Origin: a virus
Virus record (IMG/VR): IMGVR_UViG_3300009506_000008
Span: 1 to 64,000 of that record
Reading direction: 5' to 3' (one strand)
Length of the DNA stretch: 64,000 nucleotides
Shown here piece by piece: positions 6,636 to 58,450 of the stretch. The position numbers were made by a program, and so were the translations under genes. The notes under the pieces are model-generated. The model was not told the origin of the DNA and searched no databases. It worked only from the letters and a program-made list of their open reading frames with translations. How positions within the stretch are numbered: position 1 is the stretch's first letter; each line of letters starts with the position of its first letter.

Positions 6636-7664
6636 TCATTCCACTGTAGACCAAACGATGCTTTGTACCTCTTTTGACACATCGTTCAGTTCCATGTAAG
6701 TACGCAAGTTGTGACGGAAGTCAAGTCCAATCTCTACGTCATCAGACATCCGGCTTATGAAAGCCTCTATGCGATCATCCCGTTCCTCCGCTGCCTCAAT
6801 GTGTTCTCTGGATACAACTCCTTTCTCGTGAGGGAGGACTACTCGTTCCACTGTGTTATCGTCAGCGGACCACAGGAAGACGCACGGTTCATGATTCGCT
6901 TGCCTCGCGGTGGTTCGCATTATGGAACCTGGATTCACCAGCAATCGGTATCCGGGTTTGTCAGGGAACCGTTCCTTCATGGCGAATGCCGTCTTGGGAT
7001 CTTCCTCGGGATCCACCCAAAGTTTCTGTCCGTTCCCGGTGGCGTACACAAATGTCTGGTGGTTGTCGCCCGTTACTACCAGGTCGAAGCCCTTCATCTT
7101 CCTGAGCATCGTTGCGGCAGTGTTTCCCACCGCTTCCGCGCCGGGATAGATGGGGTGTGTCGAGTACACAAGATGGTGTACTAGAGCAACGGATTTGATG
7201 TCTGGGTCTAGTTCGTACCTCCCGAGGAAGGTGAAATCCGCTCCCCAGGGGTATCCGATGATTTCGGCTCCGCTGTTCCAACACACCGGCAAAACATCCT
7301 CATTTCGAAGGACTTCGATACACCCAGCGGCTTCAAGGACTCCGAGGCCCGATTTCTCATAGAGGCTAAGGGAATGTTGTGGAAGGTCGTGTTGACCTGG
7401 AATGACGATCCATCCAGAGATTCGATGAATTGCCCAGCGCAACAGGGCTGGAGAAGGTTTCCAATGATCGAATACATCTCCTGCCACATAGACAGGGCAC
7501 TCTCCGTTGTCGGACTGCAAATCACGAATGGCCGACAGCTTCCTGTCCATCGCCACTCGAAAATCATCCGTACGACAAACCGGTGCAGTTTCTCTGAGGT
7601 GGATGTCGGCTGCCAATATCGCGGTGGCATGGTTTGAGCTCCTTGGGGGTTTCGTCCTAGCCAT
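6636..7664 (-). CDS. SbcD/Mre11 nuclease
   Basis: DIH, GDVFD, PGQHD, GDNH and NPGS metallophosphoesterase motifs; start MARTKP with GGGAG RBS. Confidence 0.85.
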   Translation of the reverse strand: MARTKPPRSSNHATAILAADIHLRETAPVCRTDDFRVAMDRKLSAIRDLQSDNGECPVYVAGDVFDHWKPSPALLRWAIHRISGWIVIPGQHDLPQHSLSLYEKSGLGVLEAAGCIEVLRNEDVLPVCWNSGAEIIGYPWGADFTFLGRYELDPDIKSVALVHHLVYSTHPIYPGAEAVGNTAATMLRKMKGFDLVVTGDNHQTFVYATGNGQKLWVDPEEDPKTAFAMKERFPDKPGYRLLVNPGSIMRTTARQANHEPCVFLWSADDNTVERVVLPHEKGVVSREHIEAAEERDDRIEAFISRMSDDVEIGLDFRHNLRTYMELNDVSKEVQSIVWSTVE

Positions 7665-7911
7665 CTCGTCGTTCTCCCTGTCTTCTATTCTGCAACGGCT
7701 CTCCGGCCAGGCAACAATCGGGATGATGCACTCGCTCGCAGTTGGGGTAGTGCATATCCCGACATTCCCCTCTTTCATCTCTAGGCCAACGCTTGCAAAT
7801 CGGACACTCAGGATCGGGCACGCCCCCGGCTCCGTCACATACCAGACACTTCTGGTCCGGGCCGCTCTCCCCCGATCCTTGACAACTTTCGCAGATTATC
7901 ATTTCGGCCAC
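7657..7911 (-). CDS. Cys-rich protein with DnaJ-type zinc finger
   Basis: CESCQGSG and CLVCDGAG (CxxCxGxG twice). Confidence 0.6.
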   Translation of the reverse strand: MAEMIICESCQGSGESGPDQKCLVCDGAGGVPDPECPICKRWPRDERGECRDMHYPNCERVHHPDCCLAGEPLQNRRQGERRDG

Positions 7912-8948
7912 TCCTGTTCACACACCGGGCAAACATCTGGCTTGATGTGCTCGAACTCTTGAGTCTTTTCCTGAAGCAGGGTTTCCTGCGTGTTCACATA
8001 GCCCGTTACTGTTTCTAGCTGAGCTATGAGAGCCTTGAGTTTCCCGGCCTTCAGTTCCACTGCTTCTATGGTCAACTGCTTGTCCATCAGCACGTCTACA
8101 TCTTTTTCAGAGGTCAACAAGCTGGATACTTCGTCCAGGTTCCGAGACACTTCGCACGTCTGTTGTATCAACTTGCGAAGCTCTGCCAAGCGAACTCCCT
8201 GTTCCTGGAGATCCTCGTGTATCTTCTCCAGCTTTTTCAACCTACCGGCATGAACCAGTACCCTCTTGAAGCTGTCGAGGTCTTGAGAGACTCCCTCTAT
8301 GAGGGTGACTTGCGCCTCTCCCCAAATTCTCTTCTTGTCAATGTCTTGCACACGGGCGTTGAGGATTTCTAGCCTTTCAAGCTCTGCCTCCTGATCCGGC
8401 AGATTTTTGTACGCCTCCAATGCCGCGTCATTCTCTTCCATCTGCGAGGTAACGTGTACGATCTCCCCCCGAGCACTACGTATCATCGAGTTCACTGCCG
8501 ACATACTGGAGTCGATCTCGTCCAAGTGCGCGATCTTGTTCAAAAGGCGAGCTACTTCAGCGGCGTTGGAGGCAAGGAGGAAGGGAGCATCGTGTTGGGA
8601 CTGGATGTTGAGTTCGCCGAGATTCAACACGTTCTCTACAACTTCGGGAACATCCGTGCCGAATCCTTCCAATACTTCATCGTTCAGTATGTACGCATTG
8701 AGATTGGACTTTCTTTCTCTCGATAGCAGAGTCGAGTCATCCAATCCCATCGTTACGGCAGTATCCCCTCCCCAATTAGATCTGAACGACTCCCCCGAGG
8801 GGCGATTGGTTGTTACCCAAATAGCCCCTCTGATTATTGCCGACTTGCCGGAATCGGACGGGCCAACAATGACGTTGACTCCCGGCGAGAACACCAGTTC
8901 GGTATCCTTGTGGGATTGAAAGTTCTGAAGGTGTAGGTAAGGGATCAT
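7899..8948 (-). CDS. SbcC/Rad50 N-terminal half, ending at the zinc hook
   Basis: LQNFQSH, Walker A GPSDSGKS, Q-loop QSQHD, coiled coil, terminal CPVC. Confidence 0.85.
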   Translation of the reverse strand: MIPYLHLQNFQSHKDTELVFSPGVNVIVGPSDSGKSAIIRGAIWVTTNRPSGESFRSNWGGDTAVTMGLDDSTLLSRERKSNLNAYILNDEVLEGFGTDVPEVVENVLNLGELNIQSQHDAPFLLASNAAEVARLLNKIAHLDEIDSSMSAVNSMIRSARGEIVHVTSQMEENDAALEAYKNLPDQEAELERLEILNARVQDIDKKRIWGEAQVTLIEGVSQDLDSFKRVLVHAGRLKKLEKIHEDLQEQGVRLAELRKLIQQTCEVSRNLDEVSSLLTSEKDVDVLMDKQLTIEAVELKAGKLKALIAQLETVTGYVNTQETLLQEKTQEFEHIKPDVCPVCEQEWPK

Positions 8949-9502
8949 GCTCTTCCTGCCAATCTCTCAATCACCCCGTATCGGGCCATGTGCAAGGCAT
9001 CGGCTTTTCCATTGTCTACCTTATACTGAAGGTCGATGTTTGGATAAAGTCGGCGGGCAAGTGCTAGGGAAAGTTCCTTGGTATCCACCTTCCCCCGACC
9101 TTTGTGGGAATCGAATGTAGCCTTCATCCATTTTCCTGGGGTAATCAAAACATACGGGACGTTGCAGAAAGCCAAAGCCATCCTCCACATCCCGTAGCCC
9201 TCTCCGAATGTGAACAAACCTTTCTTGGCGTCCCGAGGCATCGCACCGACTTTCTCCAGCACGCACAAGCGAATATCGTGATACTTGATTAGCTTCTGCA
9301 TCAGATCCCGCATCCCGTACTCGTCCTTGGGGGTACGGGATGCAGCCATGTCCTGGAAGTCGTGTCGCATGATGGCAATGCCCCCGGTCTTGCCGGGGTC
9401 GATGCCCATGCAGTACCAGCCGTCGGCCTTTCCCAAGACAGGTCTTTCCTCCGGTAACGCGAGCACGGACCTGACGAGAGGAGATTTCTTGGTACGGGCC
9501 AT
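8945..9502 (-). CDS. RuvC-like Holliday junction resolvase
   Basis: MGIDPGKTGG, VLEKV, FTFG and KADAL motifs. Confidence 0.85.
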   Translation of the reverse strand: MARTKKSPLVRSVLALPEERPVLGKADGWYCMGIDPGKTGGIAIMRHDFQDMAASRTPKDEYGMRDLMQKLIKYHDIRLCVLEKVGAMPRDAKKGLFTFGEGYGMWRMALAFCNVPYVLITPGKWMKATFDSHKGRGKVDTKELSLALARRLYPNIDLQYKVDNGKADALHMARYGVIERLAGRA

Positions 9503-9807
9503 TACATCCTCTCTTTGGTAGGAGGAACGTGGGTAGCGAGAGTGATCCCGCTACGTATTTGGGTTTGAACCTTCTCATACTCCTTAGCCAGCGGAGCATT
9601 GGAAGCTATGTGTTGGACAACGAGGTTCTGAGGAAAGATGATCTCTAGCCGGTCGTCCTGCCCTTTGGCGAATCCCTTGCCGGGAACGATGAACAGAGCA
9701 TCGTCCATGATGAGCCTTGTAGGATCCATCGACTTCACCCTGCCGATGATCTGCTGGGCTCCGGGGGGAATGGTCGCGATGATCAGTTTGCCTTCGAAGT
9801 CATTCAT
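9502..9807 (-). CDS. Hypothetical protein
   Basis: Coupled ORF; small beta-rich domain. Confidence 0.55.
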   Translation of the reverse strand: MNDFEGKLIIATIPPGAQQIIGRVKSMDPTRLIMDDALFIVPGKGFAKGQDDRLEIIFPQNLVVQHIASNAPLAKEYEKVQTQIRSGITLATHVPPTKERM

Positions 9808-10891
9808 ATCTACGTTTCCTCCTTAGTTTGAGGGATTCCTCGATCTCGGTCCACTTATTAGCCACTAGCCGCCTGAGCTTGCGTTCCAGGTTTTTGTCCT
9901 CGATGTACTCAATCAACTTCGCCCTGGATAGAGGGGAGCTGGAGATGCCGGGGCACCGGATAGACTGTTTGGTCTTCGTCCAGAACTTCTCTTTCACCAT
10001 CCAGTCGATCATGCTGCCGATGTCGTCAATGCCATAATCATAGTAGATCGAGAATTCCACGTTGCGTCGCTTGCCTGTGGTCTTGTTCTTCGACACCCTG
10101 GCTATGACATTCGCCCCGATGATCCTCTCCCTAGATTTGATCGGACCCTTCGACGCCAGCCAGATCACGTGCGTACAGTAGAACTCAAGAGCCTGTCCGC
10201 CACTCCGTTTCTTTTTCTGGAATGACATGGGGTCGATGTTGTCTCGGGTCTGGGAGATTATTGCCAGGAGGGATTCTGCCGAGGAGATTTTCTTGGTCAG
10301 AGTACGGAACAACTCTGACATCTTCTTGGCCTTCTCCATTTTGTAACTGCCCTTGGGCACCTTCCCTTCCGTGATAGCTTTGGCTTCTGTTTCCACTCGT
10401 TCCATCTCGTCCATAGAGGAGATGCTGTCCAACGAGTCGAGAACGTAGATGAAAGGCCGACCTCCCTGTACGGTTTGGTGAACATAGGCTTGCAAGTGTT
10501 CTACCGTCTCGGAGTAGATGGGTTCTTCATCTTCGTCATAGGCCGGTGCCTCGATCCGTTCGTCTGTCGCGGACCCGAACAGGTATTGCATATTGAAACT
10601 GTTGGCTGCCTCTGCATCATCGTAGATGAGCCGGTAGTCCTCCAGATCCTCCTTGTCCGAGTTGGCGATCTCCGCTAGCAGGGTCAAGGCCAGAATAGTC
10701 TTGCCGGTGTGGGAGTCCCCAACGATGTTGATAATCTTTCCCTTTGGAAATCCCCCGTAGGGCTTGTCGCACAGCGCCAAATTGAGTAACGTGGAACCGG
10801 TAGAGAAGAACCCTCTGAGATTGGGATCAGCCTTCTCCACCGGTTTGCGAGCTGATTTCTTGATGTCTTCTATCAACTTAGTCCTGCCCAT
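9800..10891 (-). CDS. RecA/UvsX-like recombinase
   Basis: STGSTLLNLAL, Walker A GDSHTGKT, VLDS, SQTR, SGGQAL, VSKNK. Confidence 0.9.
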   Translation of the reverse strand: MGRTKLIEDIKKSARKPVEKADPNLRGFFSTGSTLLNLALCDKPYGGFPKGKIINIVGDSHTGKTILALTLLAEIANSDKEDLEDYRLIYDDAEAANSFNMQYLFGSATDERIEAPAYDEDEEPIYSETVEHLQAYVHQTVQGGRPFIYVLDSLDSISSMDEMERVETEAKAITEGKVPKGSYKMEKAKKMSELFRTLTKKISSAESLLAIISQTRDNIDPMSFQKKKRSGGQALEFYCTHVIWLASKGPIKSRERIIGANVIARVSKNKTTGKRRNVEFSIYYDYGIDDIGSMIDWMVKEKFWTKTKQSIRCPGISSSPLSRAKLIEYIEDKNLERKLRRLVANKWTEIEESLKLRRKRRYE

Positions 10892-11180
10892 TGAAAAACC
10901 TTTCCCATTTGTAGCGGTCGATAAGCCATTCCCTGCCTAGCTTCCTTCCTAGCTTGTGCTGGATAGCCCATCTTCGTATGGTTTGCAGGCTTTTGTAGAC
11001 TCCCCTTTCTTTCAGGAACTTCTGAATATCCAATATGGTTATGTACTTGATCTTGTGAATAGCCTCGTCGATGGTGTCGTCATCGTCAAAGGAGACTCTT
11101 CTTCTGAAGTACCTACTTCTGGTAGGTCCCGGTGGTTGCTTCGTTGGATGCTTCATGCTTTTGGTTCTTTGTTTAGCCAC
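10878..11180 (-). CDS. Excisionase/MerR-type HTH DNA-binding protein
   Basis: SLQTIRRWA...GRKLGREWLI; GTG start with GAGG RBS. Confidence 0.65.
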   Translation of the reverse strand: MAKQRTKSMKHPTKQPPGPTRSRYFRRRVSFDDDDTIDEAIHKIKYITILDIQKFLKERGVYKSLQTIRRWAIQHKLGRKLGREWLIDRYKWERFFNGQD

Positions 11181-11241
11181 CGGAAACCTCCCAAAATGAG
11201 GAGGAGGGTTGCCCCTCCTCCCCGAGTTCTACATTGGATGA

Positions 11242-12492
11242 CTATTCTTCGTGGGCTTCGCTACACTCGTCCCACAGGTCACAGTCGTCGCACTCGTCCA
11301 GGGTGTCGCAGTCCTCGCCGAACGTGCCACCATGCGGACATTTGTTCTTGGACTTCTTGCCCTTCTTGCGTTTCTTGGGAGGAGGTGTTTCGTCCTCATC
11401 CTCATCGTCATCTTCTTCGGGCTCGGGTGCTTTCTTCTTGGGTTTGCGTTTCTTGGGAGGAGGCGCTTCGTCCTCGTCTTCATCCTCCTCTTCATCTTCA
11501 TCTTCGTCCTCATCCTCCTCTTCTTCAGGAGGCGGGGCCTTCTTCTTGGGCTTGGACTTCTTCTTGGGAGGAGGCGTTTCTTCATCCTCATCCTCATCCT
11601 CATCGTCGTCTTCCTCGCCCTCGTCTTCATCTTCATCTTCTTCGGGCTCGGGTTTGCGACGTTTGGACTTGGGTTTCCGACGGCGCGGGGTTTCTTCCTC
11701 ATCCTCCTCGCCCTCGTCTTCATCCTCGTCCTCTTCATCCTTGCCGTTTTCCCCGGTATCCTGCTCCAGGTAGATCGCATTCAGCTTGTCGTAGGAATGA
11801 CGGATCGGCAAGGAGTCGAGGTCGATCTCAGCCGCTTTCTCCAGCAACTCTTCGTCCAGAGGCTCTCCCCTGGGTACGAACTCGATCTTGCTGGCGGTGT
11901 AAAACTTGTTGCCCGCCCAAGTATCCTCTTTGAACCGGACCTTGAGGCTGGCACCGTTTTCGGAGGGATCACCGGGAAACGGATCGCTCTCGTCAGAGTC
12001 CTCGATCTCTTCGTCAAACGACTTCCCGAAGAGATGACAGGATATGTCCCAGAGCTTGAGTTCGCCGGACTTGGGATCCTCGACCAGGTACAGTTCCCGG
12101 TCGGAGGCTTTCATCGCCTTCGTCAGATCGTGATCCCACCCGTACTCCTTCTTCAGCACTCCGTACTGTTCGCAATACGGACACCGTTTGCCCCACGTCT
12201 TGAGACAGACGTAGGCTTGCTCCTCAGCGCCGATGTTGCGGTGGACGGAGAACTTGGTGCGGAACCACTCTTCGCCCGGTTCGCACCCCTCTGGATGCGT
12301 CTCGGTTTTGACCACGTACGGGACCAGGTTGAAGGTGATTGTACCGGACTTCTCGATCTTGAACAGTTCCAATCCTTTGGGAAGATTGAGGGTGGTTAAA
12401 CCACCCTTCTTGTCCTTGCGTTCCTTGACGCGCTCTTTGGCCTTCTTGCGCATCGCGGCCCAACGGCTAGTTCCCTTTCGCTTCTTTGCCAT
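11242..12492 (-). CDS. gp32-like single-stranded DNA-binding protein with long D/E and K/P block tail and Cys-rich C-terminus
   Basis: VH...YVCLKTWGKRCPYCE zinc site; lies between the UvsY-like gene and RecA; acidic tail. Confidence 0.7.
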   Translation of the reverse strand: MAKKRKGTSRWAAMRKKAKERVKERKDKKGGLTTLNLPKGLELFKIEKSGTITFNLVPYVVKTETHPEGCEPGEEWFRTKFSVHRNIGAEEQAYVCLKTWGKRCPYCEQYGVLKKEYGWDHDLTKAMKASDRELYLVEDPKSGELKLWDISCHLFGKSFDEEIEDSDESDPFPGDPSENGASLKVRFKEDTWAGNKFYTASKIEFVPRGEPLDEELLEKAAEIDLDSLPIRHSYDKLNAIYLEQDTGENGKDEEDEDEDEGEEDEEETPRRRKPKSKRRKPEPEEDEDEDEGEEDDDEDEDEDEETPPPKKKSKPKKKAPPPEEEEDEDEDEDEEEDEDEDEAPPPKKRKPKKKAPEPEEDDDEDEDETPPPKKRKKGKKSKNKCPHGGTFGEDCDTLDECDDCDLWDECSEAHEE

Positions 12493-12603
12493 TGCTTCTC
12501 CTTTCATGCTCTTCTTTGGAGCGGTAGTATGCTGCCGTCGCCAGACGGACAGCTAGGTAAACGCCAAGTAATCCCAGAAGGGACACCACAACGATTTTCC
12601 ATG

Positions 12604-13113
12604 TCATTTCGTTCTCCTGCGTGTCCTTGCCTCCCTCATCTTAGTGCGAGCCTTTGAAGCTACCCGTTTTCCCTTCGCCTCAGCGATGAAATCGGGAGTG
12701 AGTTCCCGTGGGGTGGACGGGCCTGCAAAGTACGAGGCTCCGTGAAGTCGCACTAGGTTTTCCAGCGCCACCTTTCGTTGCTCGAATGCCTTGACGGCAG
12801 CACTGAGTATCGCGCTCTCGTGCTTGACATCATTGTAATCCGACAGAGCTTGTTGGTACCGGGGATCTTGCATAACCATACCGAGGATGGCTGCTTCTGT
12901 TGGTTTCTTGTCTCCTTTCTTGGTCTTCTGACGGATGTCAGAATCCACTTCGGCTTTCGTTACTTCCAACAGTTCCTTTGCTTTGTCAACCTCCCGTGCT
13001 GCCTCAGCCGACGCTTCCGCATACCGCATGAAGACGGACGCCTGCTCCAGCCATTCGATGTCCAACGCATTGGGATCAATCCTCAAGTCTTTCTCGTAAT
13101 TCAGTTCCGACAT
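12604..13113 (-). CDS. UvsY-like recombination mediator
   Basis: LRIDPNALDIEWLEQ, helical, KPTEAAI, AFEQRK; recombination cluster context. Confidence 0.6.
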   Translation of the reverse strand: MSELNYEKDLRIDPNALDIEWLEQASVFMRYAEASAEAAREVDKAKELLEVTKAEVDSDIRQKTKKGDKKPTEAAILGMVMQDPRYQQALSDYNDVKHESAILSAAVKAFEQRKVALENLVRLHGASYFAGPSTPRELTPDFIAEAKGKRVASKARTKMREARTRRRTK

Positions 13114-13153
13114 GGCAGTCCTCCTTCATGATACGCGGCGCAAGTGACACGGG

Positions 13154-16911: not shown

Positions 16912-17113
16912 CGGACTTCTCCAATTTCTCTATCTGTTGAATGTACATGACCCCTTTGTGTTTGACTACCGTTATCGCGACTGATATGTCTCCCGGAGAT
17001 GAGGCTGGATCCGTGTGGACTTCCCACTTTCCCCGGAGTTTTACCCACCACCGCTTGTGAATAGGCAGATTATGCAGCCAGTTTGAAAGATTCTTTTTCA
17101 TGCCAGCTTCCAT
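16874..17113 (-). CDS. Hypothetical protein
   Basis: Fills the gap between the polymerase and dUTPase genes. Confidence 0.45.
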   Translation of the reverse strand: MEAGMKKNLSNWLHNLPIHKRWWVKLRGKWEVHTDPASSPGDISVAITVVKHKGVMYIQQIEKLEKSDEKKVHPVCEDA

Positions 17114-18455: not shown

Positions 18456-18712
18456 CGTTTCCTCCGTGGGCTCCATCTGAAAGGTTTGTCCACGTAGCGT
18501 TTACCGTGGTATCTGTAAATGAAGAACTTCTCGTTGCCCTTTAACCAATCAGAAGGCCACTCCTCCGATGGGGTACTTTTCCTTTGGGCTTGGGAAAGCG
18601 TGTACGTCTTGGAGAGGTACGTTGCGGCTCCACGTCGGAACCCGATGTGGTAGTAGTATGGCGGGGAGGTACCACCACCTTTCCTTTCTCCTGGCCTAAT
18701 AGTCCGACCCAT
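18422..18712 (-). CDS. Small protein ending in an RWSxxRxxW motif
   Basis: AAGGAGG RBS; MGRTIRP...FRWSPRRKRW. Confidence 0.6.
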   Translation of the reverse strand: MGRTIRPGERKGGGTSPPYYYHIGFRRGAATYLSKTYTLSQAQRKSTPSEEWPSDWLKGNEKFFIYRYHGKRYVDKPFRWSPRRKRWVKLRSKSNR

Positions 18713-19314
18713 CCATCCCTCCTTTGACTCCAGCGATACACGGCAACCCGTTGGAAGTGCTCGCCCCCGCTCTCGATCCGTTCTATGGTGCAGCGGTGGG
18801 TTTTGCTGAACTCGTCCGGTGGCCTGTACGCTAGACACTCTCTGAGTTTCTCACTGTGAACGCACGCACCTTGACCCCCGTTTACATGGTATGTCGCGCT
18901 GAACGACACCCTGGTTCCTTTCTTCTTGGTGCGAGACATAGCTTTCCACTCCTCTCTTTTGTAGCTCCATCGGTGTGTCTTGACGTGCGTACCGTCATCG
19001 TTTCCATGCAGTTCTACTATGAACATCGGGCGACCTAGAACACGCAAGGACTCGTCTGGAGTCTGGAGGATCGACTGGAGCTTGCTCGCCGGTCCAGAAA
19101 ACAACGCCTCCGCGCCCTCGAAACGATACACACCAGCATACTCTGGTTTATCTAAGCATCTTTGAAATGCAGCGTCAAGGTCCTCCTCTTGCCTGTCGGA
19201 GGGATGCTTGGAGATCGGTGTTCGTGATGGGAACGCTTCCTTGATGCGTTCCATCAGTCCCCCGGTCTTCCTCCTGTAGATGCGCTCTTTGGCTTTTACG
19301 AGTCCCAAGGCCAT
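18541..19314 (-). CDS. Protein with two RWSxxRxxW modules and a probable internal start at 18939
   Basis: HRWSYKREEW and YRWSQRRDGW; GAGGAG RBS before the internal MSRTKKK. Confidence 0.55.
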   Translation of the reverse strand: MALGLVKAKERIYRRKTGGLMERIKEAFPSRTPISKHPSDRQEEDLDAAFQRCLDKPEYAGVYRFEGAEALFSGPASKLQSILQTPDESLRVLGRPMFIVELHGNDDGTHVKTHRWSYKREEWKAMSRTKKKGTRVSFSATYHVNGGQGACVHSEKLRECLAYRPPDEFSKTHRCTIERIESGGEHFQRVAVYRWSQRRDGWVGLLGQEKGKVVVPPRHTTTTSGSDVEPQRTSPRRTRFPKPKGKVPHRRSGLLIG

Positions 19315-27930: not shown

Positions 27931-28698
27931 CTACTTGATGGAGAGGTGGCCCTTCTTGTCCTTGACCACGATGTCTTTCTTCTCTTCGAGGTGCTTGATG
28001 TGCGCCTTGACTCGCGCCTTGCTCTGCGAGGTCACGCGCCCGAACTCCTTGCCGACTTTCTCGGCGATTTCATCGAGCGTTCCGCCCTTGACGAGGAGGT
28101 CGTCGATGAACGCGGCCTGCGATCCGACAAAGTGACCGAACTTGTTCTTCGTGCCGGACTTGATGAGGTTGCTCTCGCCGGTGCCCTTGGCCTTGCCCTT
28201 CTTGGCGGGTTTCTCTTTGCCCTTCGCTTTGCCCTTGCCCTTCTTGGCCGGGGGAGCTTCCTCTTCCTCATCCTCGTCATCGTCCTCCGACTCATCTTCG
28301 TCGGAGTCCTCATCCTCGTCTTCCTCTTCCTCTTCCTTGGCGGGCTTCGCTTTGGGCTTCGCCTTTTCCTTGCCCTTCGCTTTGCCCTTCTTGGCGGGAG
28401 GCGCTTCCTCCTCCTCCTCCTCCTCATCCTCGTCCTCGGTGCCCTCGTCCTCATCTTCGCCTTCGTCCTCGTCCTCGTCCTCGTCATCGGACTCGGCACC
28501 GGGTCGCTCGTACCCGAGGTCTTCCAGGGTAGCCCAGGTCGCTTCCTTGAAATCGTCGCCTTCCTCGATCTCTTCCGCGTTCGCGAGGATCGCGTCCACG
28601 AGTTTCTGCCCTTTCAGGCTCGTGTCGATGGGGGGCTCCAGGCCCATGGAGTCGTTCATGTCCTTCGCCGCTTTCACGAGTGCGCTTCTTGTTGCCAT
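27931..28698 (-). CDS. Protein with D/E and K/A/P charge blocks and a C-terminal winged-helix-like domain
   Basis: Own promoter and GAGGAGG RBS; C-terminal domain resembles 48413-48751. Confidence 0.7.
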   Translation of the reverse strand: MATRSALVKAAKDMNDSMGLEPPIDTSLKGQKLVDAILANAEEIEEGDDFKEATWATLEDLGYERPGAESDDEDEDEDEGEDEDEGTEDEDEEEEEEEAPPAKKGKAKGKEKAKPKAKPAKEEEEEDEDEDSDEDESEDDDEDEEEEAPPAKKGKGKAKGKEKPAKKGKAKGTGESNLIKSGTKNKFGHFVGSQAAFIDDLLVKGGTLDEIAEKVGKEFGRVTSQSKARVKAHIKHLEEKKDIVVKDKKGHLSIK

Positions 28699-31551: not shown

Positions 31552-32763
31552 TCAGTTGGTTCGGTCGCCCGTCACGAAGCTAAAGTTGAATCGTTTCGAT
31601 TCGTGTTGAAGGAATTGGCGGAAGATGGGAGATGATACGCTAGCCATCTTGATCGAACGGGATTGGATCCAGCGTTGCTTCTCCAGCCACTCAATGTAGG
31701 AATCGCATACAGAATATACATCAGGGTACTCTTGGATGAACAACTTCCTGTGTTGTGGTAACTCTATATCGTCCTTGAGTCTCTCGTACCAGAGTACAAT
31801 CTGATCTACTTGACTGGAGAGAGCGAATGCTTTCCCGTTGATCCTAGATTCCGGCCCGAGGAAGTCTTGGAAGAGTCCTACTGTGGCTTTATCTTTGGTA
31901 GGAAGTTGATCTGGAGTTACAGGTTTGAGATACTTACTACGGGTTTCTTCAGTATCGAATGGAGTATCACCATTTGACGGGAATGGAGATTTCTCTCCTT
32001 GACTTATAGCCCAACAAAGTCTAGTCATTGCTAGTTGAGGTGTTTCTCTAACCAATTGACCTGCTAGCCTATCCTTTTGACTGGGTGTAAGTGGACGTCC
32101 CAATTCACTACGATACTTCAGAAAGTCTCTCCATGCTTCTTGAAACTTTGTATCGTTCTGAAATATGGCAGGAAACAGATGTCTGTTGGCAGGTGGTTTT
32201 GTTCTCTTACTACGCTTCGCGTGCGCGTTTTCACTACTATGAGTATTACTGTGTCTGTTTTTTATGGATAAGGTTTCTTGTAAAGGATATGCACCTTGAA
32301 AAACCTGTTTAGGATTTTCCGGTTTAGGTGATTTGGTTCTCTTTGACTTGATGGGTTTGTCCACCGTGTCCGGAAAATCCGGTTTAGGTGAGTTTTTCCT
32401 TGATGTAGCCTTTTTCGTTTTTGGTTGTATCCCCTCGGGGATTTGATCTTCTGAAGCAGGATGTGCAAAGCACCAGAACTCGATACCTTTGAGCGTTCCA
32501 TCCTTGTGTCGTACTCGTTTCCTGAACACATACCGAAGGACTTCCAACTCTTCAAGTCCCGCTGTTACAGCATCGAGACCATCTTTCGACCTGGCAACTA
32601 TATCCTGCATTCTCCATTCCCAACCGTCCGGTCTGGTTAGGAAGTATGTCAGAATGCCTTTGGCTTTCCAGGTTAGGTTGGGATCTTTTTCGATTGCGTA
32701 GGTATTGATTGCGCGGAGGTACGGATGGGATGGATCGCCTAGACGATTGATGTTCATTGTCAT
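31552..32763 (-). CDS. Replication initiator with N-terminal wHTH
   Basis: DPNLTWKAKGILTYFLTRPDGW...SKDG...LEELE motif; internal repeats; directly upstream of DnaB. Confidence 0.75.
   Translation of the reverse strand: MTMNINRLGDPSHPYLRAINTYAIEKDPNLTWKAKGILTYFLTRPDGWEWRMQDIVARSKDGLDAVTAGLEELEVLRYVFRKRVRHKDGTLKGIEFWCFAHPASEDQIPEGIQPKTKKATSRKNSPKPDFPDTVDKPIKSKRTKSPKPENPKQVFQGAYPLQETLSIKNRHSNTHSSENAHAKRSKRTKPPANRHLFPAIFQNDTKFQEAWRDFLKYRSELGRPLTPSQKDRLAGQLVRETPQLAMTRLCWAISQGEKSPFPSNGDTPFDTEETRSKYLKPVTPDQLPTKDKATVGLFQDFLGPESRINGKAFALSSQVDQIVLWYERLKDDIELPQHRKLFIQEYPDVYSVCDSYIEWLEKQRWIQSRSIKMASVSSPIFRQFLQHESKRFNFSFVTGDRTN
32304..32391. repeat. Iteron-like repeats, probable replication origin
   Basis: TCCGGTTTAGGTGA at 32318 and 32378; variant CCTGTTTAGGA at 32304; inverted pair GGATTTTCCGG/CCGGAAAATCC; AT-rich flank. 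Confidence 0.6.
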
Positions 32764-33894: not shown

Positions 33895-34337
33895 TCTTTA
33901 TCCCAGTCAGGATTCGATGCGAGGTGAATGCTGACAGCTTTGCCGTCTCTGCATGGCTTGCAGTCCTCGCACTTGATTCTCTTGTGACGATGAGCGCACG
34001 CTTCAGCATACATGAAACAAGCTCTATCGTGACAGTAGAAAATCTTGGATATGTCGTACTGGGAACAACTCAAATCCAAAGGAGTGATTGTCTGCCCGGT
34101 GGAGGCGCACCGTCTCTGGGCAGAGAGAGGGTTCTTGAAGTCGTAAGAAATGGACATTCCCTTTCTCCAACCGATGCACGTTCGGCAGGAGGGAGTGAAC
34201 TTGGGCCGCTTGGTTCTAGTAGAGGCTTTCTTCAATGGCTGTTTGGTCCTCCGTTTCTTGGCAGGAGGAGGAGGAGGCTTGGTCCTCCTCCTCTTTGGAG
34301 CGGGTTCTGTCGATGCCGCGTGTTTGGTTCTTGGCAT
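33891..34337 (-). CDS. Protein with basic RTK-repeat tail and Cys-rich domain
   Basis: AGGAGG RBS; MPRTK start; four RTK copies; many Cys. Confidence 0.65.
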   Translation of the reverse strand: MPRTKHAASTEPAPKRRRTKPPPPPAKKRRTKQPLKKASTRTKRPKFTPSCRTCIGWRKGMSISYDFKNPLSAQRRCASTGQTITPLDLSCSQYDISKIFYCHDRACFMYAEACAHRHKRIKCEDCKPCRDGKAVSIHLASNPDWDKE

Positions 34338-37028: not shown

Positions 37029-37235
37029 CTACAGTGTACCTCGGGCACCACAGTCGAGGCAACGCCACTTGAACTCTTGGTCTCCGTTCCTGTACACCAC
37101 GTTCTCATGTGCCCACTTGCCTTTGGCTTCAGGAGGTTTCGGATTGTTTTTGGAGCAGACGTTCCAGCCTGCATCCCCGGCTCGATCCCAGAACTTGGGT
37201 GCAATGTTCCCCGCTTGCTTCGTTCTCATAGCCAT
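37029..37235 (-). CDS. Small zinc-ribbon protein starting MAMRTK
   Basis: AGGAG RBS; CLDC. Confidence 0.55.
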   Translation of the reverse strand: MAMRTKQAGNIAPKFWDRAGDAGWNVCSKNNPKPPEAKGKWAHENVVYRNGDQEFKWRCLDCGARGTL

Positions 37236-40236: not shown

Positions 40237-40728
40237 TCAGGTTTGTGGCAAGACACCCTTGCCGTGGTAGGAATAGTAATCATCGGTGCCGTCGCCGATG
40301 ATCACGTGGTCCAGCAACCGCAGTCCCAGCAGGAAGCACCCCTGTTGGAGGCGTGTCGTTAGCTGGTTGTCCTCGTCGCTGGGATCTGCATGACCGGTGG
40401 GATGGTTGTGGATCAGGACAATGCCGTGTGCTTTGAGCACAAGAGCGGGACCAAACACTTCCCTGGGGTGTACCAAAGTTCCGCTCAGTGTCCCTACCGA
40501 TGTGGTGTAGATGCCGATGGCATGGTTGCGTGCATCGACAGCAATGACAGCGAACTGTTCACATCCGTTGTCTTGGAGATGCTGCCGTGCGATCTGCACC
40601 ACAACGCTACTGTGATTGATCTTCGGTAAGGACAGGGCTGGCGGTCCCTCTCGTACCATGCTGATCCTGTACGAGGGAATTTCAATGTACTTCGGGGACA
40701 TCTTTGGAGCCGGTTTTGTCCTCGCCAT
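40237..40728 (-). CDS. RadC/JAB domain protein
   Basis: VHPREVF, HNHPTG, PSDED, LLDHVIIG. Confidence 0.9.
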   Translation of the reverse strand: MARTKPAPKMSPKYIEIPSYRISMVREGPPALSLPKINHSSVVVQIARQHLQDNGCEQFAVIAVDARNHAIGIYTTSVGTLSGTLVHPREVFGPALVLKAHGIVLIHNHPTGHADPSDEDNQLTTRLQQGCFLLGLRLLDHVIIGDGTDDYYSYHGKGVLPQT

Positions 40729-50196: not shown

Positions 50197-50877
50197 ATGC
50201 CAAGAACCAAGAACCCGAACGGGAACAGAAGGGATCAAAAAGCCATACGGACCGAGTACGGGTACAAGTATGACTATGACGATGACAGGCATCCCCACTT
50301 GGCATACGTCGCTTGCGCCGAACATGGGCTAACAAACAGAGAGTTGGCCAAGTTGTTCGGGGTGGCGGAGAGTACCATCAAGAGCTGGATCAAGAATCAT
50401 GAGCTCTTCGGGAGGGCTGTCAGGGACGGGAAAGACGAGTTCGACCTGGAAAAGGCCGAGAATGCCTTGTTCAGAAGAGTCACGGGGTTCGAGGTTGAGG
50501 AAACCAAAGTAGTGGACAATGCCAAAAACGGCAGGACGGTGGAGGTAAGGAGGAAAACGATCCTGCCAGACGTGTTGGCTTGCATATTCTGGCTGAGAAA
50601 CAGGAACTCCGAGCGTTGGAAGGATGTCAGGAACGTCAAACAAGACGGGCATGTCAAGCACGACCACGAGCACAGTTTCAAGGAGTCCAACGAGAGACTG
50701 GATCTCGACAAACTATCGGTAGAAGAGTTGGAGAACTTGCATGGCATCCTCGCCAAGGCGGAGAACCAAATTTCCCGCAAAAGGGAGTACGACCCAAAAG
50801 ACTTCGAAGCCATCACTGCCGGACAGGATATTGGTGGAGAAGGCTCTCGCGGAAAGAGACCTCGGTCACTTCATTAG
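50197..50877 (+). CDS. terS: Terminase small subunit
   Basis: HTH (GLTNRELAKLFGVAESTIKSW), ENALFRRVTG, PDVLACIFWLRNR...WKD. Confidence 0.85.
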   Translation: MPRTKNPNGNRRDQKAIRTEYGYKYDYDDDRHPHLAYVACAEHGLTNRELAKLFGVAESTIKSWIKNHELFGRAVRDGKDEFDLEKAENALFRRVTGFEVEETKVVDNAKNGRTVEVRRKTILPDVLACIFWLRNRNSERWKDVRNVKQDGHVKHDHEHSFKESNERLDLDKLSVEELENLHGILAKAENQISRKREYDPKDFEAITAGQDIGGEGSRGKRPRSLH

Positions 50878-52474
50878 ACAAGCCTGGCATGTGTTAGAGC
50901 CAGGAACTCCGTACATTCATGGTTGGCATATTGACGCTATAGGAGAGCATCTTCAGGCTGTTGACGAGGGGGAGATCCGCAGACTTTGCATCAACATTCC
51001 CCCTCGTCACATGAAGAGCACCGAGGTAAGTGTCTGTTGGCCTGTATGGAGTTGGATTAAGCGACCTTGGATCCGGTGGTTGTTCTCTTCATATGCGTAC
51101 AATCTGTCCATTCGAGACTCTGTCAAAGCGCGGCGTCTCATCAATTCTAGGTGGTTTCAAGACAGGTGGAGCGATAAGTTCCAGCTTGTAGGAGATCAGA
51201 ACGAGAAAACACGGTATGAGAATGACAAGTCAGGATTCAGGATAGCCACTTCTGTAGGGGGACTTGGAACGGGGGAGGGGGGTGACAGAATAGTAGTAGA
51301 CGACCCGCACAACGTCAGAGAAGCCGAATCAGACACTGTTCGAGGAGGCGTGGCGTTGTGGTGGGACGAGGTTATGAGCACTCGTATCAATAATCCCAAC
51401 ACAGGGGCCTTTGTCATCATCATGCAGAGGGTTCACGACAACGACTTAGCTGGTCACGTGTTGGCAAAAGGGGGGTACACGCATTTGTGCCTTCCGGCGA
51501 GGTATGAGCCAAGGATACAGATAGAGCTCCATGTACATCCAAGCACTGAATATCGCTTTCAAGACCCCCGTGTAGAACCGGGGGAGCTATTGTGGCCTGA
51601 GCGATTTGACGAGCGGGCTTTATCTGACATCGAAAAAGACCTCGGGGAGTATGCGGTCGCCGGCCAACTTCAACAGCGTCCCGCTCCCAGAGAAGGTGGT
51701 ATTTTCAAGAAACATTGGTGGAGATTTTGGCAGCGTCCGGGTCAGAATCTTCCCGCAGTGACCTTTCAAAGATCGGACGGCGGTGGTTGGAACTGTCCTG
51801 TAGTAACCATTCCCCATGCGTTAGACGAAGAGTCCGTGGATCCCTTGAAATACGATCAATCTTGGGATATGTCCTTCAAGGACACGTCTTCGAGCGATAT
51901 GGTCGTGGGGCAACTGTGGGCTCAGCCTATGCACCTGTGTGAAAATGGAGATGGGTTGACCTTCGGACCCGCTGATGCGTTCTTAATAGATGAGGTTCGA
52001 GGGCGCAAAAACTTTCCTGTCAGCGTGAAAGCTGTCATAGAGTTCAAACGGAAGTACCCAATGACGCGGAGGATTTGGGTAGAGGACAAAGCAAACGGTC
52101 CCGCCGTCATTGCTGTTCTCAAGTCCCAGATCCCCGGCCTCATTGCGGTTACTCCGCAGGGCGACAAAGAGGCGCGAGCTTCTGCTTGCACTTTTGCCAT
52201 TGAATCGGGTAATGTGTATCTCCCTCACCCCCACAATGCTCCTTGGATTTTGGACTGGATCGACGAGTTAGGGGGCTTTCCCAAGAAGACATTCGATGAC
52301 CGAGTCGATGCTGCAACTCAGGCTCTGCTGAAGTTAGTGGTGAAAGCGGCAGGCATCCGGCTAGGGGGTCAGCAGCACTGGATACGGTCGTTGATGAAGA
52401 AACCAAAGGGTCCGATGGGCTTTGTCGCTAAGAAACGCGGTGCTCAGATAGGAGGCATCAGTTATGGCAGATAG
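50741..52474 (+). CDS. terL: Terminase large subunit
   Basis: INIPPRHMKST, TGEGGD, VVDDPH, IMQR, YAVAGQLQQRP, SWD, EDKANG, DDRVDA. Confidence 0.95.
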   Translation: MASSPRRRTKFPAKGSTTQKTSKPSLPDRILVEKALAERDLGHFIRQAWHVLEPGTPYIHGWHIDAIGEHLQAVDEGEIRRLCINIPPRHMKSTEVSVCWPVWSWIKRPWIRWLFSSYAYNLSIRDSVKARRLINSRWFQDRWSDKFQLVGDQNEKTRYENDKSGFRIATSVGGLGTGEGGDRIVVDDPHNVREAESDTVRGGVALWWDEVMSTRINNPNTGAFVIIMQRVHDNDLAGHVLAKGGYTHLCLPARYEPRIQIELHVHPSTEYRFQDPRVEPGELLWPERFDERALSDIEKDLGEYAVAGQLQQRPAPREGGIFKKHWWRFWQRPGQNLPAVTFQRSDGGGWNCPVVTIPHALDEESVDPLKYDQSWDMSFKDTSSSDMVVGQLWAQPMHLCENGDGLTFGPADAFLIDEVRGRKNFPVSVKAVIEFKRKYPMTRRIWVEDKANGPAVIAVLKSQIPGLIAVTPQGDKEARASACTFAIESGNVYLPHPHNAPWILDWIDELGGFPKKTFDDRVDAATQALLKLVVKAAGIRLGGQQHWIRSLMKKPKGPMGFVAKKRGAQIGGISYGR

Positions 52475-54044: not shown

Positions 54045-54053
54045 GAGGATGCC

Positions 54054-54350
54054 ATGGAACCTGCGGCTGAACCTGGAGCTGCCACTTTAGGCGCTCACGA
54101 AGAGAGGAAACGGAAACGAGCTCAACTGCGAAGAGTTGCAAAGATCATGGAAGAGAAGCGGAATAGGTACGATCAGATCCTTTTGGGTTATCAAAAGGGG
54201 ACCGGTTTGGTTTATGTGGAAGTGAAGGGGCATGACGATCCCAAGAGTAGCGTCATGTGGAAAGAGGGTGAGCGCCTGCCCCGCAAGTTCCGCATTCATC
54301 TCATAAAACAGATGTTCAGGATCATCTTCGGAAAAGGCAGCATCGGCTAG
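54054..54350 (+). CDS. Hypothetical protein
   Basis: AGGAGG RBS. Confidence 0.55.
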   Translation: MEPAAEPGAATLGAHEERKRKRAQLRRVAKIMEEKRNRYDQILLGYQKGTGLVYVEVKGHDDPKSSVMWKEGERLPRKFRIHLIKQMFRIIFGKGSIG

Positions 54351-55601: not shown

Positions 55602-55613
55602 GCCACAAAACTC

Positions 55614-55642
55614 TTTACGCGGGGCTTGTGGTCGGTTATACT
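55614..55642 (+). promoter_or_regulatory. sigma70-like promoter for scaffold and capsid genes
   Basis: TTTACG-17 nt-TATACT. Confidence 0.65.
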
Positions 55643-55772
55643 AGCTGAGATCAAGTCCGGTGACGTGTCCGCCCACTGATCCGGCAAGGAAGGGCTAGAT
55701 GCCCTGGTAAAAAGTGAATAGGGGGCTTGATGCTCCCGACTCCAAGAAGGGGTTAGAAACCCCAGGAGGAAA

Positions 55773-56624: not shown

Positions 56625-56651
56625 GCACAACCGATTAGGAGGTAGTCAAGA

Positions 56652-57701: not shown

Positions 57702-57710
57702 AGAGAGTGT

Positions 57711-57737
57711 TGAAGGGGGAGACTTTCTCCCCCTTCA
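57711..57737 (+). terminator. Strong hairpin after the capsid gene (terminator or stabiliser)
   Basis: TGAAGGGGGAG/CTCCCCCTTCA stem; weak U-tract. Confidence 0.55.
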
Positions 57738-57758
57738 CACTTCAAGGGAGGTCCGCAC

Positions 57759-58049
57759 ATGAAGATTTATGTAACACAGGAACTCCAGGCCGATGCAACG
57801 TTGATCAAGCGATCCGATGGAATTCCCACAATTCACGCCGCTGCCGAAGACGATGGCGTCGCCGTGAAGATCCACGTTGACGGTGTCGGTGTTCTCGTCT
57901 TGACGTGCTTGGTGAACGCGACTGCTGACGGTGTCAATTACGCGGCAACAATGGTTCCGTACACCGGAGTTGGAGGAGATTCCATCACTCCAGTCGGTGA
58001 TACGGGGGCCGCTCCGGGCGTGACCGGCGCCATCGGTTCAACAACATAA
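57759..58049 (+). CDS. Small virion protein, possibly head decoration
   Basis: GGAGG RBS; follows the capsid gene. Confidence 0.55.
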   Translation: MKIYVTQELQADATLIKRSDGIPTIHAAAEDDGVAVKIHVDGVGVLVLTCLVNATADGVNYAATMVPYTGVGGDSITPVGDTGAAPGVTGAIGSTT

Positions 58050-58120
58050 CCTGCAAACATCGAGTCAGGGCGGGGAGGGACGGGTTCCCTCCCCCGTTCC
58101 TCCATCCGAGGAGGTTGAGT

Positions 58121-58450
58121 ATGAGTGCAACCGGTTTTCAGAGAGTGCGCAGACTCCAGGCCCTTCGCAAGGAAATTGCGGCTTTGGAGGGAAAGAAGGG
58201 GGACGAAGTCCAGGTGCGGGCGGATGAACTCAAGCCCGTCGGGGAGTTCAAGTTGAAGGGGATGCTTGAGGAACTCAAGAGCAAGACGGCTCAAGCGGCT
58301 CAGTCGCGCAGTGTTCCTCGCTATCCTGCCAAAGCCCCGGAACCGGAAGCCAAGGTTGCGGAAGCCAAGGTTGCGGACGCCCCAGAGGCAAAGCCCGACG
58401 AACCAGTGACCGACGAAGAGAGCACCAGAAGGTCCCGGCGCACGAAGTAA
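58121..58450 (+). CDS. Small head-region protein ending in RRTK
   Basis: GAGGAGG RBS; MSATGFQRVRR start. Confidence 0.65.
   Translation: MSATGFQRVRRLQALRKEIAALEGKKGDEVQVRADELKPVGEFKLKGMLEELKSKTAQAAQSRSVPRYPAKAPEPEAKVAEAKVADAPEAKPDEPVTDEESTRRSRRTK

What the first reader, a model, noticed from the sequence alone, without database searches (positions are those of the whole stretch)
6636..58450. A shared terminal R-T-K peptide on more than a dozen unrelated proteins
Seen at N-termini: MARTKP (SbcD, 7664), MARTKK (RuvC), MGRTKL (RecA), MAKQRTK (HTH, 11180), MSRTKK (18939), MPRTKH (34337, four RTK copies), MAMRTKQ (37235), MARTKP (RadC), MPRTKN (TerS) and MASSPRRRTK (TerL). Variants: MARTRK (41540), MNRTRT (DpdL-like), MGRTIR (18712), MARAK (44818). 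Seen at C-termini: RRRTK* (UvsY-like) and SRRTK* (58450). KRTK occurs twice in the initiator linker. Codons differ between copies (CGT ACC AAG, AGG ACT AAG, AGG ACG AAA, AGA ACC AAG, CGC ACC AAG), so the constraint is on the peptide rather than the RNA. The motif sits in extensions outside the conserved folds and mostly on DNA-acting enzymes. ARTK is also the histone H3 N-terminus. Inference: a phage-wide address tag, for example docking to a hub or replication compartment, a modification site, or a degron.
Basis: partly seen in the sequence, partly recalled or inferred. Interest (0 to 1): 0.85.

Follow-up and report, generated by a model that had tools for sequence, protein, structure and literature searches.

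The report
Shared R-T-K end tag on phage DNA enzymes
About a tenth of the proteins of this uncultured 101-kb phage, nearly all of them DNA-handling enzymes, begin or end with the same three residues Arg-Thr-Lys, and a few distant relatives do the same, which points to a common address label whose reader is still unknown.

Summary
With curated starts, 10 of 137 proteins carry R-T-K within residues 2-11 (0.5 expected). Seven read exactly M-x-R-T-K (0.07 expected) and two end in RTK. The five other orders of R, T and K are at or below expectation.

The constraint acts on the peptide. The excess is frame-specific, Arg codons of both families are used, and copies also occur inside disordered K/R/P-rich linkers and at C-termini.

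The tag is not private to this phage. Among 15 whole related genomes sharing the same replication/recombination module, four (33-56% GC) carry 4-7 N-terminal tags each; eleven carry 0-1. Tagged proteins include RecA/UvsX, RuvC, SbcD, a portal, a DNA methyltransferase and three different small-terminase families. In the nearest relative the tag persists while the RuvC linker shrinks from 25 to 6 residues.

Most likely it is a short linear motif on flexible tails, read by one specific partner. I identified a gp32-like SSB with a giant acidic tail as the best candidate hub, but nothing shows binding. Direct DNA contact and a modification site remain open. No reader gene specific to tag-positive genomes was found. 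I found no description of this motif. This scan has noted other shared phage tags on other DNA, not this one.

The parts
7650..7658 (-). RTK codons of the N-terminal tag MARTKPP of the SbcD/Mre11-like nuclease (gene 6636-7664)
   Evidence: the Metallophos domain starts at residue 18
9488..9496 (-). RTK of MARTKK on the RuvC-like resolvase (gene 8945-9502). A roughly 25-residue linker precedes the fold.
   Evidence: The start overlaps the upstream stop (TAATG). The nearest relative keeps MARTK with a 6-residue linker.
10877..10885 (-). RTK of MGRTKL on the RecA/UvsX-like recombinase (gene 9800-10891)
   Evidence: 18 of 120 orthologues have RTK in their first 12 residues
11160..11168 (-). RTK of MAKQRTK on a small HTH-like protein (gene 10878-11180, GTG start)
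18925..18933 (-). RTK of MSRTKKK on an ORF between the two halves of the split family-A polymerase (18541-18939). Whether this is a gene is uncertain.
   Evidence: the coding score is weak
34209..34331 (-). Four RTK copies in the basic, proline-rich first 43 residues of a Cys-rich 148-aa protein just upstream of the primase (gene 33891-34337)
37218..37226 (-). RTK of MAMRTKQ (or MRTKQ from ATG 37229) on a 66-68-aa Cys-containing protein (37029-37235)
40714..40722 (-). RTK of MARTKPAPK on the RadC-like JAB-domain protein (gene 40237-40728)
50203..50211 (+). RTK of MPRTKNP on the small terminase (gene 50197-50877)
   Evidence: a 53%-identical homologue starts MGRTKD
50762..50770 (+). RTK of MASSPRRRTKFP on the large terminase, if it starts at ATG 50741 (gene 50741-52474)
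12607..12615 (-). C-terminal RRRTK-stop of the UvsY-like mediator (gene 12604-13113); a second RTK lies at 12640-12648
58439..58447 (+). C-terminal SRRTK-stop of a 109-aa head-module protein (gene 58121-58450)
32197..32340 (-). Two KRTK copies (32332-32340 and 32197-32205) in the disordered linker of the replication initiator (gene 31552-32763)
11242..12492 (-). gp32-like single-stranded-DNA-binding protein: basic N-terminus, OB/zinc core, and a roughly 170-residue tail of alternating acidic and basic blocks. It is the candidate hub for the tags, not a tag carrier at its ends.
   Evidence: AlphaFold2 model of residues 1-255, pLDDT 88.5. Foldseek top hits are the T4 and RB69 gp32 cores, probability 1.0. 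Sequence.
27931..28698 (-). 255-aa protein with the highest coding score of its size and the same acidic/basic block architecture. It is a second possible acidic scaffold; its function is unknown.

Best explanation
x-R-T-K, often followed within one or two residues by Pro, is a selected short linear peptide motif. It sits on flexible basic tails at the extreme N-terminus, less often at the C-terminus or inside linkers. In one lineage of uncultured phages it marks proteins that process DNA ends, branches and concatemers: recombinase, mediator, Mre11-like nuclease, resolvase, RadC, terminase subunits and, in relatives, a portal and a DNA methyltransferase.

I think one stereospecific protein partner reads it, so that these otherwise unrelated proteins are gathered or handled together. 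The most plausible partner is the phage's gp32-like SSB. That protein has a giant acidic tail, and in T4 gp32 is the known recruiter of UvsX and UvsY.

Shown: enrichment, peptide-level constraint, position outside the folds, recurrence and turnover in relatives.
Inferred: that there is one reader.
For: 1. Enrichment and order specificity: 10 of 137 proteins against 0.5 expected, 7 exact M-x-RTK against 0.065, and the five permutations at or below expectation.
2. Specificity at every position in the four positive genomes: RTK 6/6/4/4, against RSK 1/0/0/0 and KTK 0/1/1/0. Plain charge would not give this.
3. Peptide level: in frame 0 AGRACNAAR occurs 16 times against 1-3 for the permuted orders, while frame 1 shows no such contrast. 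Arg codons in the tags of G001 and G002 are both CGN and AGR. Copies also occur at C-termini and inside linkers.
4. Bimodal distribution among 15 whole genomes that share the replication/recombination module: 4-7 tags in four genomes (33-56% GC) and 0-1 in eleven. The negatives have no alternative tripeptide and no RT-over-TR bias.
5. Recurrent use: small terminases of three different families are tagged, and so are a portal, a DNA methyltransferase and a radical-SAM protein in relatives.
6. Purifying selection: the nearest relative keeps MARTK on RuvC while the linker shrinks from 25 to 6 residues, keeps x-RTK on RecA, and a 53%-identical TerS homologue starts MGRTK.
7. A gp32-like SSB is present. 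T4 gp32 recruits UvsX, UvsY, gp59 and Dda through its C-terminal region (PMC11551737). Its own N-terminal Lys-Arg-Lys-Ser-Thr 'LAST' peptide docks on an acidic region of the neighbouring core (PMC12893549).
Against: - No reader is identified. No gene is shared by the positive genomes and absent from the negatives: the one candidate, a MuF-like head protein, is present in seven negatives.
- No SSB alignment column separates positives from negatives beyond chance.
- Negative genomes also have acidic-tailed SSBs.
- A portal, a methyltransferase and a radical-SAM enzyme are not obvious SSB clients.
- The positive genomes sit in one large RecA clade, but inside an unresolved polytomy, so one origin with losses cannot be told from several gains.
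- Arg codons within RTK of this genome are AGR in 16 of 21 cases against 33% usage. This nucleotide bias is only partly explained by A-rich gene starts.
Confidence: 0.4

Rival explanations
1. The tails are direct nucleic-acid-binding arms. Arg enters a groove while Thr and Lys hold the backbone, giving each DNA enzyme a non-specific anchor on DNA. No protein reader exists.
For: Every tagged protein of known function acts on DNA. The motif lies in K/R/P-rich tails resembling SPKK-type, AT-hook-type or homeodomain-arm sequences (the resemblance is recalled from memory). UvsY-like C-termini are basic in relatives without RTK as well, and many SbcD orthologues carry basic N-terminal extensions without RTK. 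The N-termini of the RuvC and Mre11 folds lie near their active sites (established structural knowledge).
Against: DNA is the same in tag-negative relatives, so the bimodal distribution is unexplained. The strict R, then T, then K, with RSK, KTK and KTR absent, is more specific than backbone binding needs. The RecA N-terminus points to the outside of the filament, away from the bound DNA (established knowledge). The core replisome DNA binders are untagged.
Confidence: 0.25
2. RTK is a substrate site for a modifying enzyme of the phage or the host (Thr phosphorylation, Arg ADP-ribosylation, or Lys acetylation or methylation). Modification would switch a set of DNA enzymes on or off together.
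For: Position-by-position specificity is typical of enzyme substrates. Exposed terminal tails are typical modification sites. The same four residues in histone H3 are modified at R2, T3 and K4 (general knowledge).
Against: No kinase, ADP-ribosyltransferase, SET or acetyltransferase domain appeared in the roughly 55 window proteins scanned against Pfam or PHROGs. No enzyme gene is shared only by the positive genomes. The hosts must differ widely (33-56% GC, with and without Shine-Dalgarno sequences), so a host enzyme would have to be near-universal.
Confidence: 0.12
3. The motif acts during or just after translation. It is either an N-terminal sequence that tunes initiation or early elongation, or an N-terminal stability signal (degron).
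For: There is a strong preference for residues 2-5. The second residue in this genome is A, G, S or P, which permits Met removal. Gene starts are A-rich, and AGR codons are over-used in the tags of this genome.
Against: C-terminal and internal copies exist. Tags occur with E, K, I or V at position 2 in the AT-rich relatives. Arg codons of both families are used. The carriers are low-copy enzymes, whereas the capsid protein, scaffold and SSB lack the tag. There is no match to the ClpX N-terminal motifs as I recall them.
Confidence: 0.1
4. Chance, or a by-product of K/R/T-rich N-termini and mis-called starts.
For: N-termini in these phages are about twofold enriched in K and R. A few starts are uncertain (18939, 50741, 37235).
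Against: None of 20000 and none of 5000 composition-preserving shuffles reached the observed count. The permutations are absent. Most starts have Shine-Dalgarno sequences or stop-start coupling. Three further genomes of very different base composition show the same pattern.
Confidence: 0.02

Closest known systems
T4 gp32 N-terminal 'LAST' motif (Lys-Arg-Lys-Ser-Thr) and gp32-centred recruitment of UvsX, UvsY, gp59 and Dda
   Same: Both are very short basic Ser/Thr-containing peptides at the extreme N-terminus, in a phage with a gp32-like SSB and UvsX-, UvsY- and gp46/47-like recombination proteins. In T4 the peptide docks on an acidic region of the SSB core (PMC12893549), and the SSB is the recruiting hub (PMC11551737). 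This phage's own SSB starts MAKKRKGTSR, which has LAST-like composition.
   Different: In T4 the motif sits on the SSB itself and serves self-cooperativity, and partners are recruited through the SSB's C-terminal region binding folded partner domains. Here a different, strictly ordered tripeptide sits on the partners. Its binding to the SSB is untested.
Shared terminal docking tails of phage replication proteins (T7 gp2.5 and gp4 acidic C-termini ending in Phe; clamp-binding C-terminal peptides of T4 gp43, gp33 and gp55)
   Same: The logic is the same: several unrelated proteins carry one short terminal peptide that is read by one partner.
   Different: Those tails are acidic or hydrophobic, C-terminal, and their readers are known (recalled from memory). 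RTK is basic, mostly N-terminal, marks recombination and packaging proteins rather than the replisome, and has no known reader.
Histone H3 N-terminus ARTK and viral histone mimics (for example the influenza NS1 ARSK tail)
   Same: After Met removal SbcD, RuvC and RadC would begin A-R-T-K, identical to H3 residues 1-4. The small protein at 37235 continues RTKQ.
   Different: The identity ends after 4-5 residues. Relatives use E, K, I, V or P before RTK. No PHD, chromo, WD40 or SET reader was found in the proteins scanned, and the hosts are prokaryotes. This is a resemblance, not membership.
Minor-groove and backbone arms (AT-hook RGRP, SPKK repeats, homeodomain N-terminal arm R-x-R-T)
   Same: Basic, proline-flanked tails on DNA-binding proteins; the R-T-K-P pattern loosely resembles R-G-R-P.
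   Different: The defining Gly-Arg-Pro core is absent. There is no evidence for groove binding. The resemblance is recalled from memory.

Membership tests
gp32-type SSB (for the 416-aa candidate hub, 11242-12492) | OB-fold core with a zinc-binding subdomain, structurally superposable on the T4 and RB69 gp32 cores | tested here: met
   AF2 model pLDDT 88.5. The top six Foldseek hits are gp32 cores, E 3e-6 to 1e-4, probability 1.0, TM about 0.5-0.6. His84, Cys96, Cys104 and Cys107 are invariant or nearly invariant in 38 orthologues.
gp32-type SSB (for the 416-aa candidate hub) | Basic N-terminal cooperativity peptide and acidic C-terminal region | tested here: met
   The N-terminus is MAKKRKGTSR. 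The C-terminal roughly 170 residues are mostly D/E blocks interrupted by PKK-rich blocks. No sequence-level Pfam, PHROG or PDB hit was found.
LAST-motif-like docking peptide | (Lys/Arg)3(Ser/Thr)2 composition at the N-terminus | tested here: not met
   The minimal tag is x-R-T-K, with two basic residues and one Thr. Only some copies (MSRTKKKGT, KRRRTK) approach the LAST composition.
LAST-motif-like docking peptide | Binds an acidic surface of the SSB core | not testable with these tools
   No binding measurement or interface is available from these tools; this needs a binding assay.
Bacterial or phage sliding-clamp-binding motif | Hydrophobic consensus of the QL[SD]LF type at a terminus | tested here: not met
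   The tags are basic and polar, with no hydrophobic pentapeptide. The consensus is recalled from memory.
AT-hook | Arg-Gly-Arg-Pro core | tested here: not met
   No Gly at the centre: the copies read R-T-K-P, R-T-K-x-P or R-T-K-H.
Histone H3 tail mimic | ARTKQTARKS-like tail together with a reader of that tail in the system | tested here: not met
   Only A-R-T-K is shared, in 3 proteins. Relatives have E, K, I, V or P before RTK. No reader domain was seen in the roughly 55 window proteins scanned.
Twin-arginine (Tat) signal peptide | S/T-R-R-x-F-L-K followed by a hydrophobic h-region | tested here: not met
   No hydrophobic stretch follows any tag; polar, proline-rich linkers or the enzyme fold follow directly.
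Lineage-wide terminal tag (shared short linear motif) | The same peptide on non-homologous proteins, conserved while flanks diverge, recurring in related genomes | tested here: met

The most novel reading that the evidence does not exclude
RTK is a phage-encoded address code. A so far unrecognised reader, either a surface on the gp32-like SSB or another conserved module protein, binds the free x-R-T-K terminus. It thereby assembles recombinase, mediator, Mre11-like nuclease, resolvase, terminase and portal into one concatemer-processing and packaging factory. The code is gained and lost protein by protein while the genome-level system persists across hosts as different as 33% and 56% GC.
Probability: 0.25. 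Interest if true: 0.8.

Novelty: new variant of a known kind. Interest (0 to 1): 0.62.

Why it matters
If one partner reads the tag, three residues would be enough to enrol a protein into a phage's DNA-processing machinery. That gives a compact, evolvable wiring principle linking recombination, branch resolution and packaging.

The tag would also be a practical handle. It could be used to find new members of the machinery among proteins of unknown function: six or more small tagged ORFs here and in relatives. It could also serve to pull down the hub.

The patchy but recurrent distribution across very different hosts offers a natural experiment on how short linear motifs arise and spread within a viral proteome.

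If the tails turn out to be only DNA-binding arms, the finding is a modest note on a lineage-specific sequence habit.

Tried and rejected
- Complex prediction of the SSB core (alignment of 38 orthologues) with RuvC residues 1-30: no verdict, score 0.00, controls not run. This is not evidence either way.
- Reader search by gene content: tblastn of all ORFs of the four positive genomes against 15 genomes found only a MuF-like head protein shared by three positives and no negatives. A Pfam PF04233 search then found MuF in seven negatives, so it was rejected.
- SSB residue association with tag status: the best column difference was 0.85 against a null 95th percentile of about 0.82, in a poorly aligned N-terminal column. 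Not significant.
- RNA-level motif: rejected on frame specificity and mixed Arg codon families. An AGR excess in this genome remains unexplained.
- General 'M-x-R-T' habit of the family: rejected, RT equals TR in the negative loci.
- An alternative tag in the negative genomes: none found.
- METARTKK at 6582 as a tag: rejected. Alignment with orthologues puts the start at ATG 6624, and the RTK lies inside a coiled coil.
- Sequence searches of the SSB against Pfam, PHROGs and PDB sequences found nothing. Only the fold search identified it.
- Host assignment from 11 MAG contigs: the labels are scattered over archaea and six bacterial phyla, so they are uninformative; all 11 are tag-negative.
- Cultured relatives: none. 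The best RecA match in GenBank phages is 34% (Vibrio phages). The TerL-related Roseobacter phage CRP-902 has no tag in any annotated gene.
- Literature: a full-text search for ARTK with bacteriophage returned nothing relevant.
The 14.9-kb contig of the nearest relative therefore could not be read, and only three near-relative proteins were seen: RecA and RuvC on that contig, and a TerS homologue on another 1.3-kb contig.

Full report
**What the window is**

The window is the first 64 kb of a complete 101,020-bp phage genome with direct terminal repeats. Genes are led by AAGGAGG-type Shine-Dalgarno sequences.
- A long minus-strand arm (about 5-48 kb) encodes replication, recombination and nucleotide metabolism.
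- A plus-strand arm from 50 kb encodes TerS, TerL, portal, a MuF-like protein, scaffold, major capsid protein and the tail.

The recombination set is T4-like in logic:
- a RecA/UvsX-like recombinase;
- a UvsY-like protein;
- an SbcD-like nuclease flanked by the two halves of a split SbcC;
- a RuvC-like resolvase;
- a 416-aa protein that no sequence search could name. Its AlphaFold2 model (pLDDT 88.5) matches the T4 and RB69 gp32 cores at Foldseek probability 1.0.

Most starts are backed by a Shine-Dalgarno sequence or by stop-start overlap with the upstream gene.

| Gene set | RTK in residues 2-11 | Expected | Shuffle control |
|---|---|---|---|
| Automatic, blind to the motif | 7 of 136 | 0.47 | 0 of 20000 within-terminus shuffles reach it; any tripeptide reaches 7 in 10 of 20000 |
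| Curated starts | 10 of 137 | 0.52 | 0 of 5000 |

In the curated set seven proteins read exactly M-x-R-T-K (0.065 expected) and two end in RTK.

Across the proteome RTK is the third most over-represented tripeptide, after the acidic repeats EDE and DED. It occurs 21-24 times against 6.1 expected. The five other orders of the same residues occur 1-8 times.

Beyond the termini, RTK sits in K/R/P-rich disordered segments:
- four times in the first 43 residues of the protein at 34337;
- twice in the initiator linker;
- twice in the UvsY-like tail.

A proline usually follows within one or two residues, as in RTKPP, RTKPAP, RTKSP, RTKNP, RTKFP and RTKQP.

**Peptide, not RNA**

- The nucleotide pattern AGRACNAAR occurs 16 times in frame 0 of genes, while the permuted orders occur 1-3 times. 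In frame 1 all orders are similarly common.
- In two AT-rich relatives the tag arginines use CGG, CGA and CGT as well as AGA and AGG.
- C-terminal and internal copies cannot act on initiation.

One loose end remains. In this genome 16 of 21 RTK arginines are AGR against 33% usage. A-rich gene starts explain this only in part.

**Position relative to folds**

Profile matches begin at residue 18 (SbcD), 32 (RuvC), 5-45 (RecA), 17-37 (RadC) and 36-39 (TerS). The tags therefore sit on extensions outside the conserved folds.

**Relatives**

The RecA-like protein has more than 1900 metagenomic homologues. Of the best 120, 18 have RTK in their first 12 residues.

I fetched 80 IMG/VR loci around RecA orthologues and 14 whole related records. 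All share the same replication/recombination module. Tag counts are bimodal.

| Record | GC | N-terminal x-RTK proteins |
|---|---|---|
| G001 | 37% | 6 |
| G002 | 33% | 5, plus two near-terminal C-terminal copies (one ends in RTK, one in RTKF) |
| G003 | 56%, 34-kb fragment | 4 |
| This phage | 53% | 7-10 |
| Eleven others | various | 0-1 each |

Further points:
- The permuted tripeptides score 0-2 everywhere.
- Two shorter loci (L013, L020) are also positive.
- The negative genomes show no alternative shared tripeptide and no RT-over-TR bias.
- Within positives the motif is specific at each position: RTK 6/6/4/4 against RSK 1/0/0/0 and KTK 0/1/1/0.

*Who carries the tag.* In this phage: SbcD, RuvC, RecA, the UvsY-like protein (C-terminus), RadC, an HTH protein, TerS, TerL, two small Cys-rich proteins and a head-module protein (C-terminus). 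In relatives:
- RecA, RuvC, SbcD and small unknown ORFs;
- a portal, a DNA methyltransferase and a radical-SAM protein;
- small terminases of three different families: an HTH type here, Terminase_2/phrog_51 in G001 and phrog_309 in G002.

The processive replisome (both polymerase halves, clamp, clamp loader, DnaB-like helicase, primase, SSB) and the virion shell are untagged.

*Turnover.* The sister genomes G001 and G002 differ in whether RecA is tagged. Many SbcD orthologues elsewhere have no extension, or a basic one without RTK.

*Conservation.* In the nearest relative (RecA 71%, RuvC 75% identical):
- RuvC keeps MARTK while the linker to the fold shrinks from about 25 to 6 residues;
- RecA keeps x-RTKL.

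A 53%-identical TerS homologue, on a separate 1.3-kb contig, keeps x-RTK while the following residues change. More distant RuvC and TerS homologues lack the extension.

*Phylogeny.* On a quick RecA tree all positives fall in one of the two large clades, but inside an unresolved polytomy and next to negatives. One origin with losses and several gains are both possible.

**Interpretation**

The data show a selected, order-specific, terminal short linear motif that marks DNA-processing proteins in one phage lineage.

Its specificity at all three positions, and its all-or-nothing distribution among genomes with the same DNA and the same module, argue for a stereospecific reader, either a docking partner or an enzyme, rather than plain charge.

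The best candidate hub is the gp32-like SSB:
- It is shared by all these phages.
- Its tail holds about 170 residues of acidic blocks.
- In T4, gp32 recruits UvsX, UvsY, gp59 and Dda (PMC11551737).
- T4 gp32 receives a neighbour's basic N-terminal Lys-Arg-Lys-Ser-Thr peptide on an acidic region of its core (PMC12893549).

This remains inference. The rivals in order are:
- direct DNA-binding arms;
- a modification site;
- a translational or stability signal;
- chance, which the statistics exclude.

Several searches for a reader gave nothing:
- No SSB column tracks tag status.
- Negative genomes also have acidic SSB tails.
- No gene is specific to the positives.
- No modifying-enzyme domain was seen in the roughly 55 proteins scanned.

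**Comparison with what is known**

The logic resembles the shared terminal docking tails of T7 and T4 replication proteins and the gp32 LAST motif. The peptide, its position, its carriers and its unknown reader are all different.

The likeness to histone H3 (ARTK) is four residues and is not kept in relatives.

I found nothing on this motif in the paper library. There is no cultured relative.

Earlier notes of this scan describe other shared phage tags on other DNA whose 'one hub' readings were later marked down. That history is one reason I keep the hub claim at modest odds.

**Limits**

- Gene starts are computational.
- The ORF at 18939 is doubtful and the TerL start at 50741 is only likely.
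- Relatives' genes were called with a crude ORF and start scan.
- G003 is a 42%-complete fragment.

Noticed in passing
window 5592-8948 (-): SbcC is split. An N-terminal ATPase half lies at 7899-8948 and a C-terminal SMC half at 5592-6203. They flank SbcD (6636-7664) and a small coiled-coil ORF (6385-6624). The same layout recurs in relatives such as L013 and L009.
   Followed up: partly
window 17070-20522 (-): The family-A DNA polymerase is in two genes. One is a UDG-plus-3'-5'-exonuclease half (19296-20522) and the other a polymerase half (17070-18455). About 840 bp separate them and hold two overlapping small ORFs in different frames (18541-18939, MSRTKKK...; 18422-18712, MGRTIRPG... with a strong Shine-Dalgarno). 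Which ORF is real, or whether a frameshift joins them, is open.
   Followed up: partly
window 11242-12492 (-) and 27931-28698 (-): Two proteins, the gp32-like SSB and a 255-aa protein with the highest coding score for its size, carry long alternating blocks of D/E runs and PPKK-type basic runs. The SSB family also ends in a conserved Cys-x-x-Trp-x-x-Cys-like motif. A charge-block architecture of this kind could drive condensate formation.
   Followed up: partly
window 50741-50877 (+): If TerL starts at ATG 50741 it overlaps the end of TerS by 137 nt in another frame. The alternative GTG at 50834 would cut a helix that is conserved with Roseobacter phage CRP-902 TerL.
   Followed up: partly
G014 (record of L069), whole record: Five ORFs of this tag-negative relative share the tripeptide VDF within their first five or six residues. 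This may be another shared N-terminal peptide or a paralogue family.
   Followed up: no
window 47, 21 RTK codon triplets genome-wide: Arg in RTK is AGA or AGG in 16 of 21 cases against 33% genome usage. Thr is ACC in 13 of 21 against 34%. This holds for internal copies too. The AT-rich relatives do not show it.
   Followed up: partly
general: From memory, not checked here: bacterial EF-Tu has a near-universal R-T-K-P-H near its N-terminus, and E. coli EF-G begins MARTTP. Several tags read RTKP or RTKH. This is probably coincidence.
   Followed up: no
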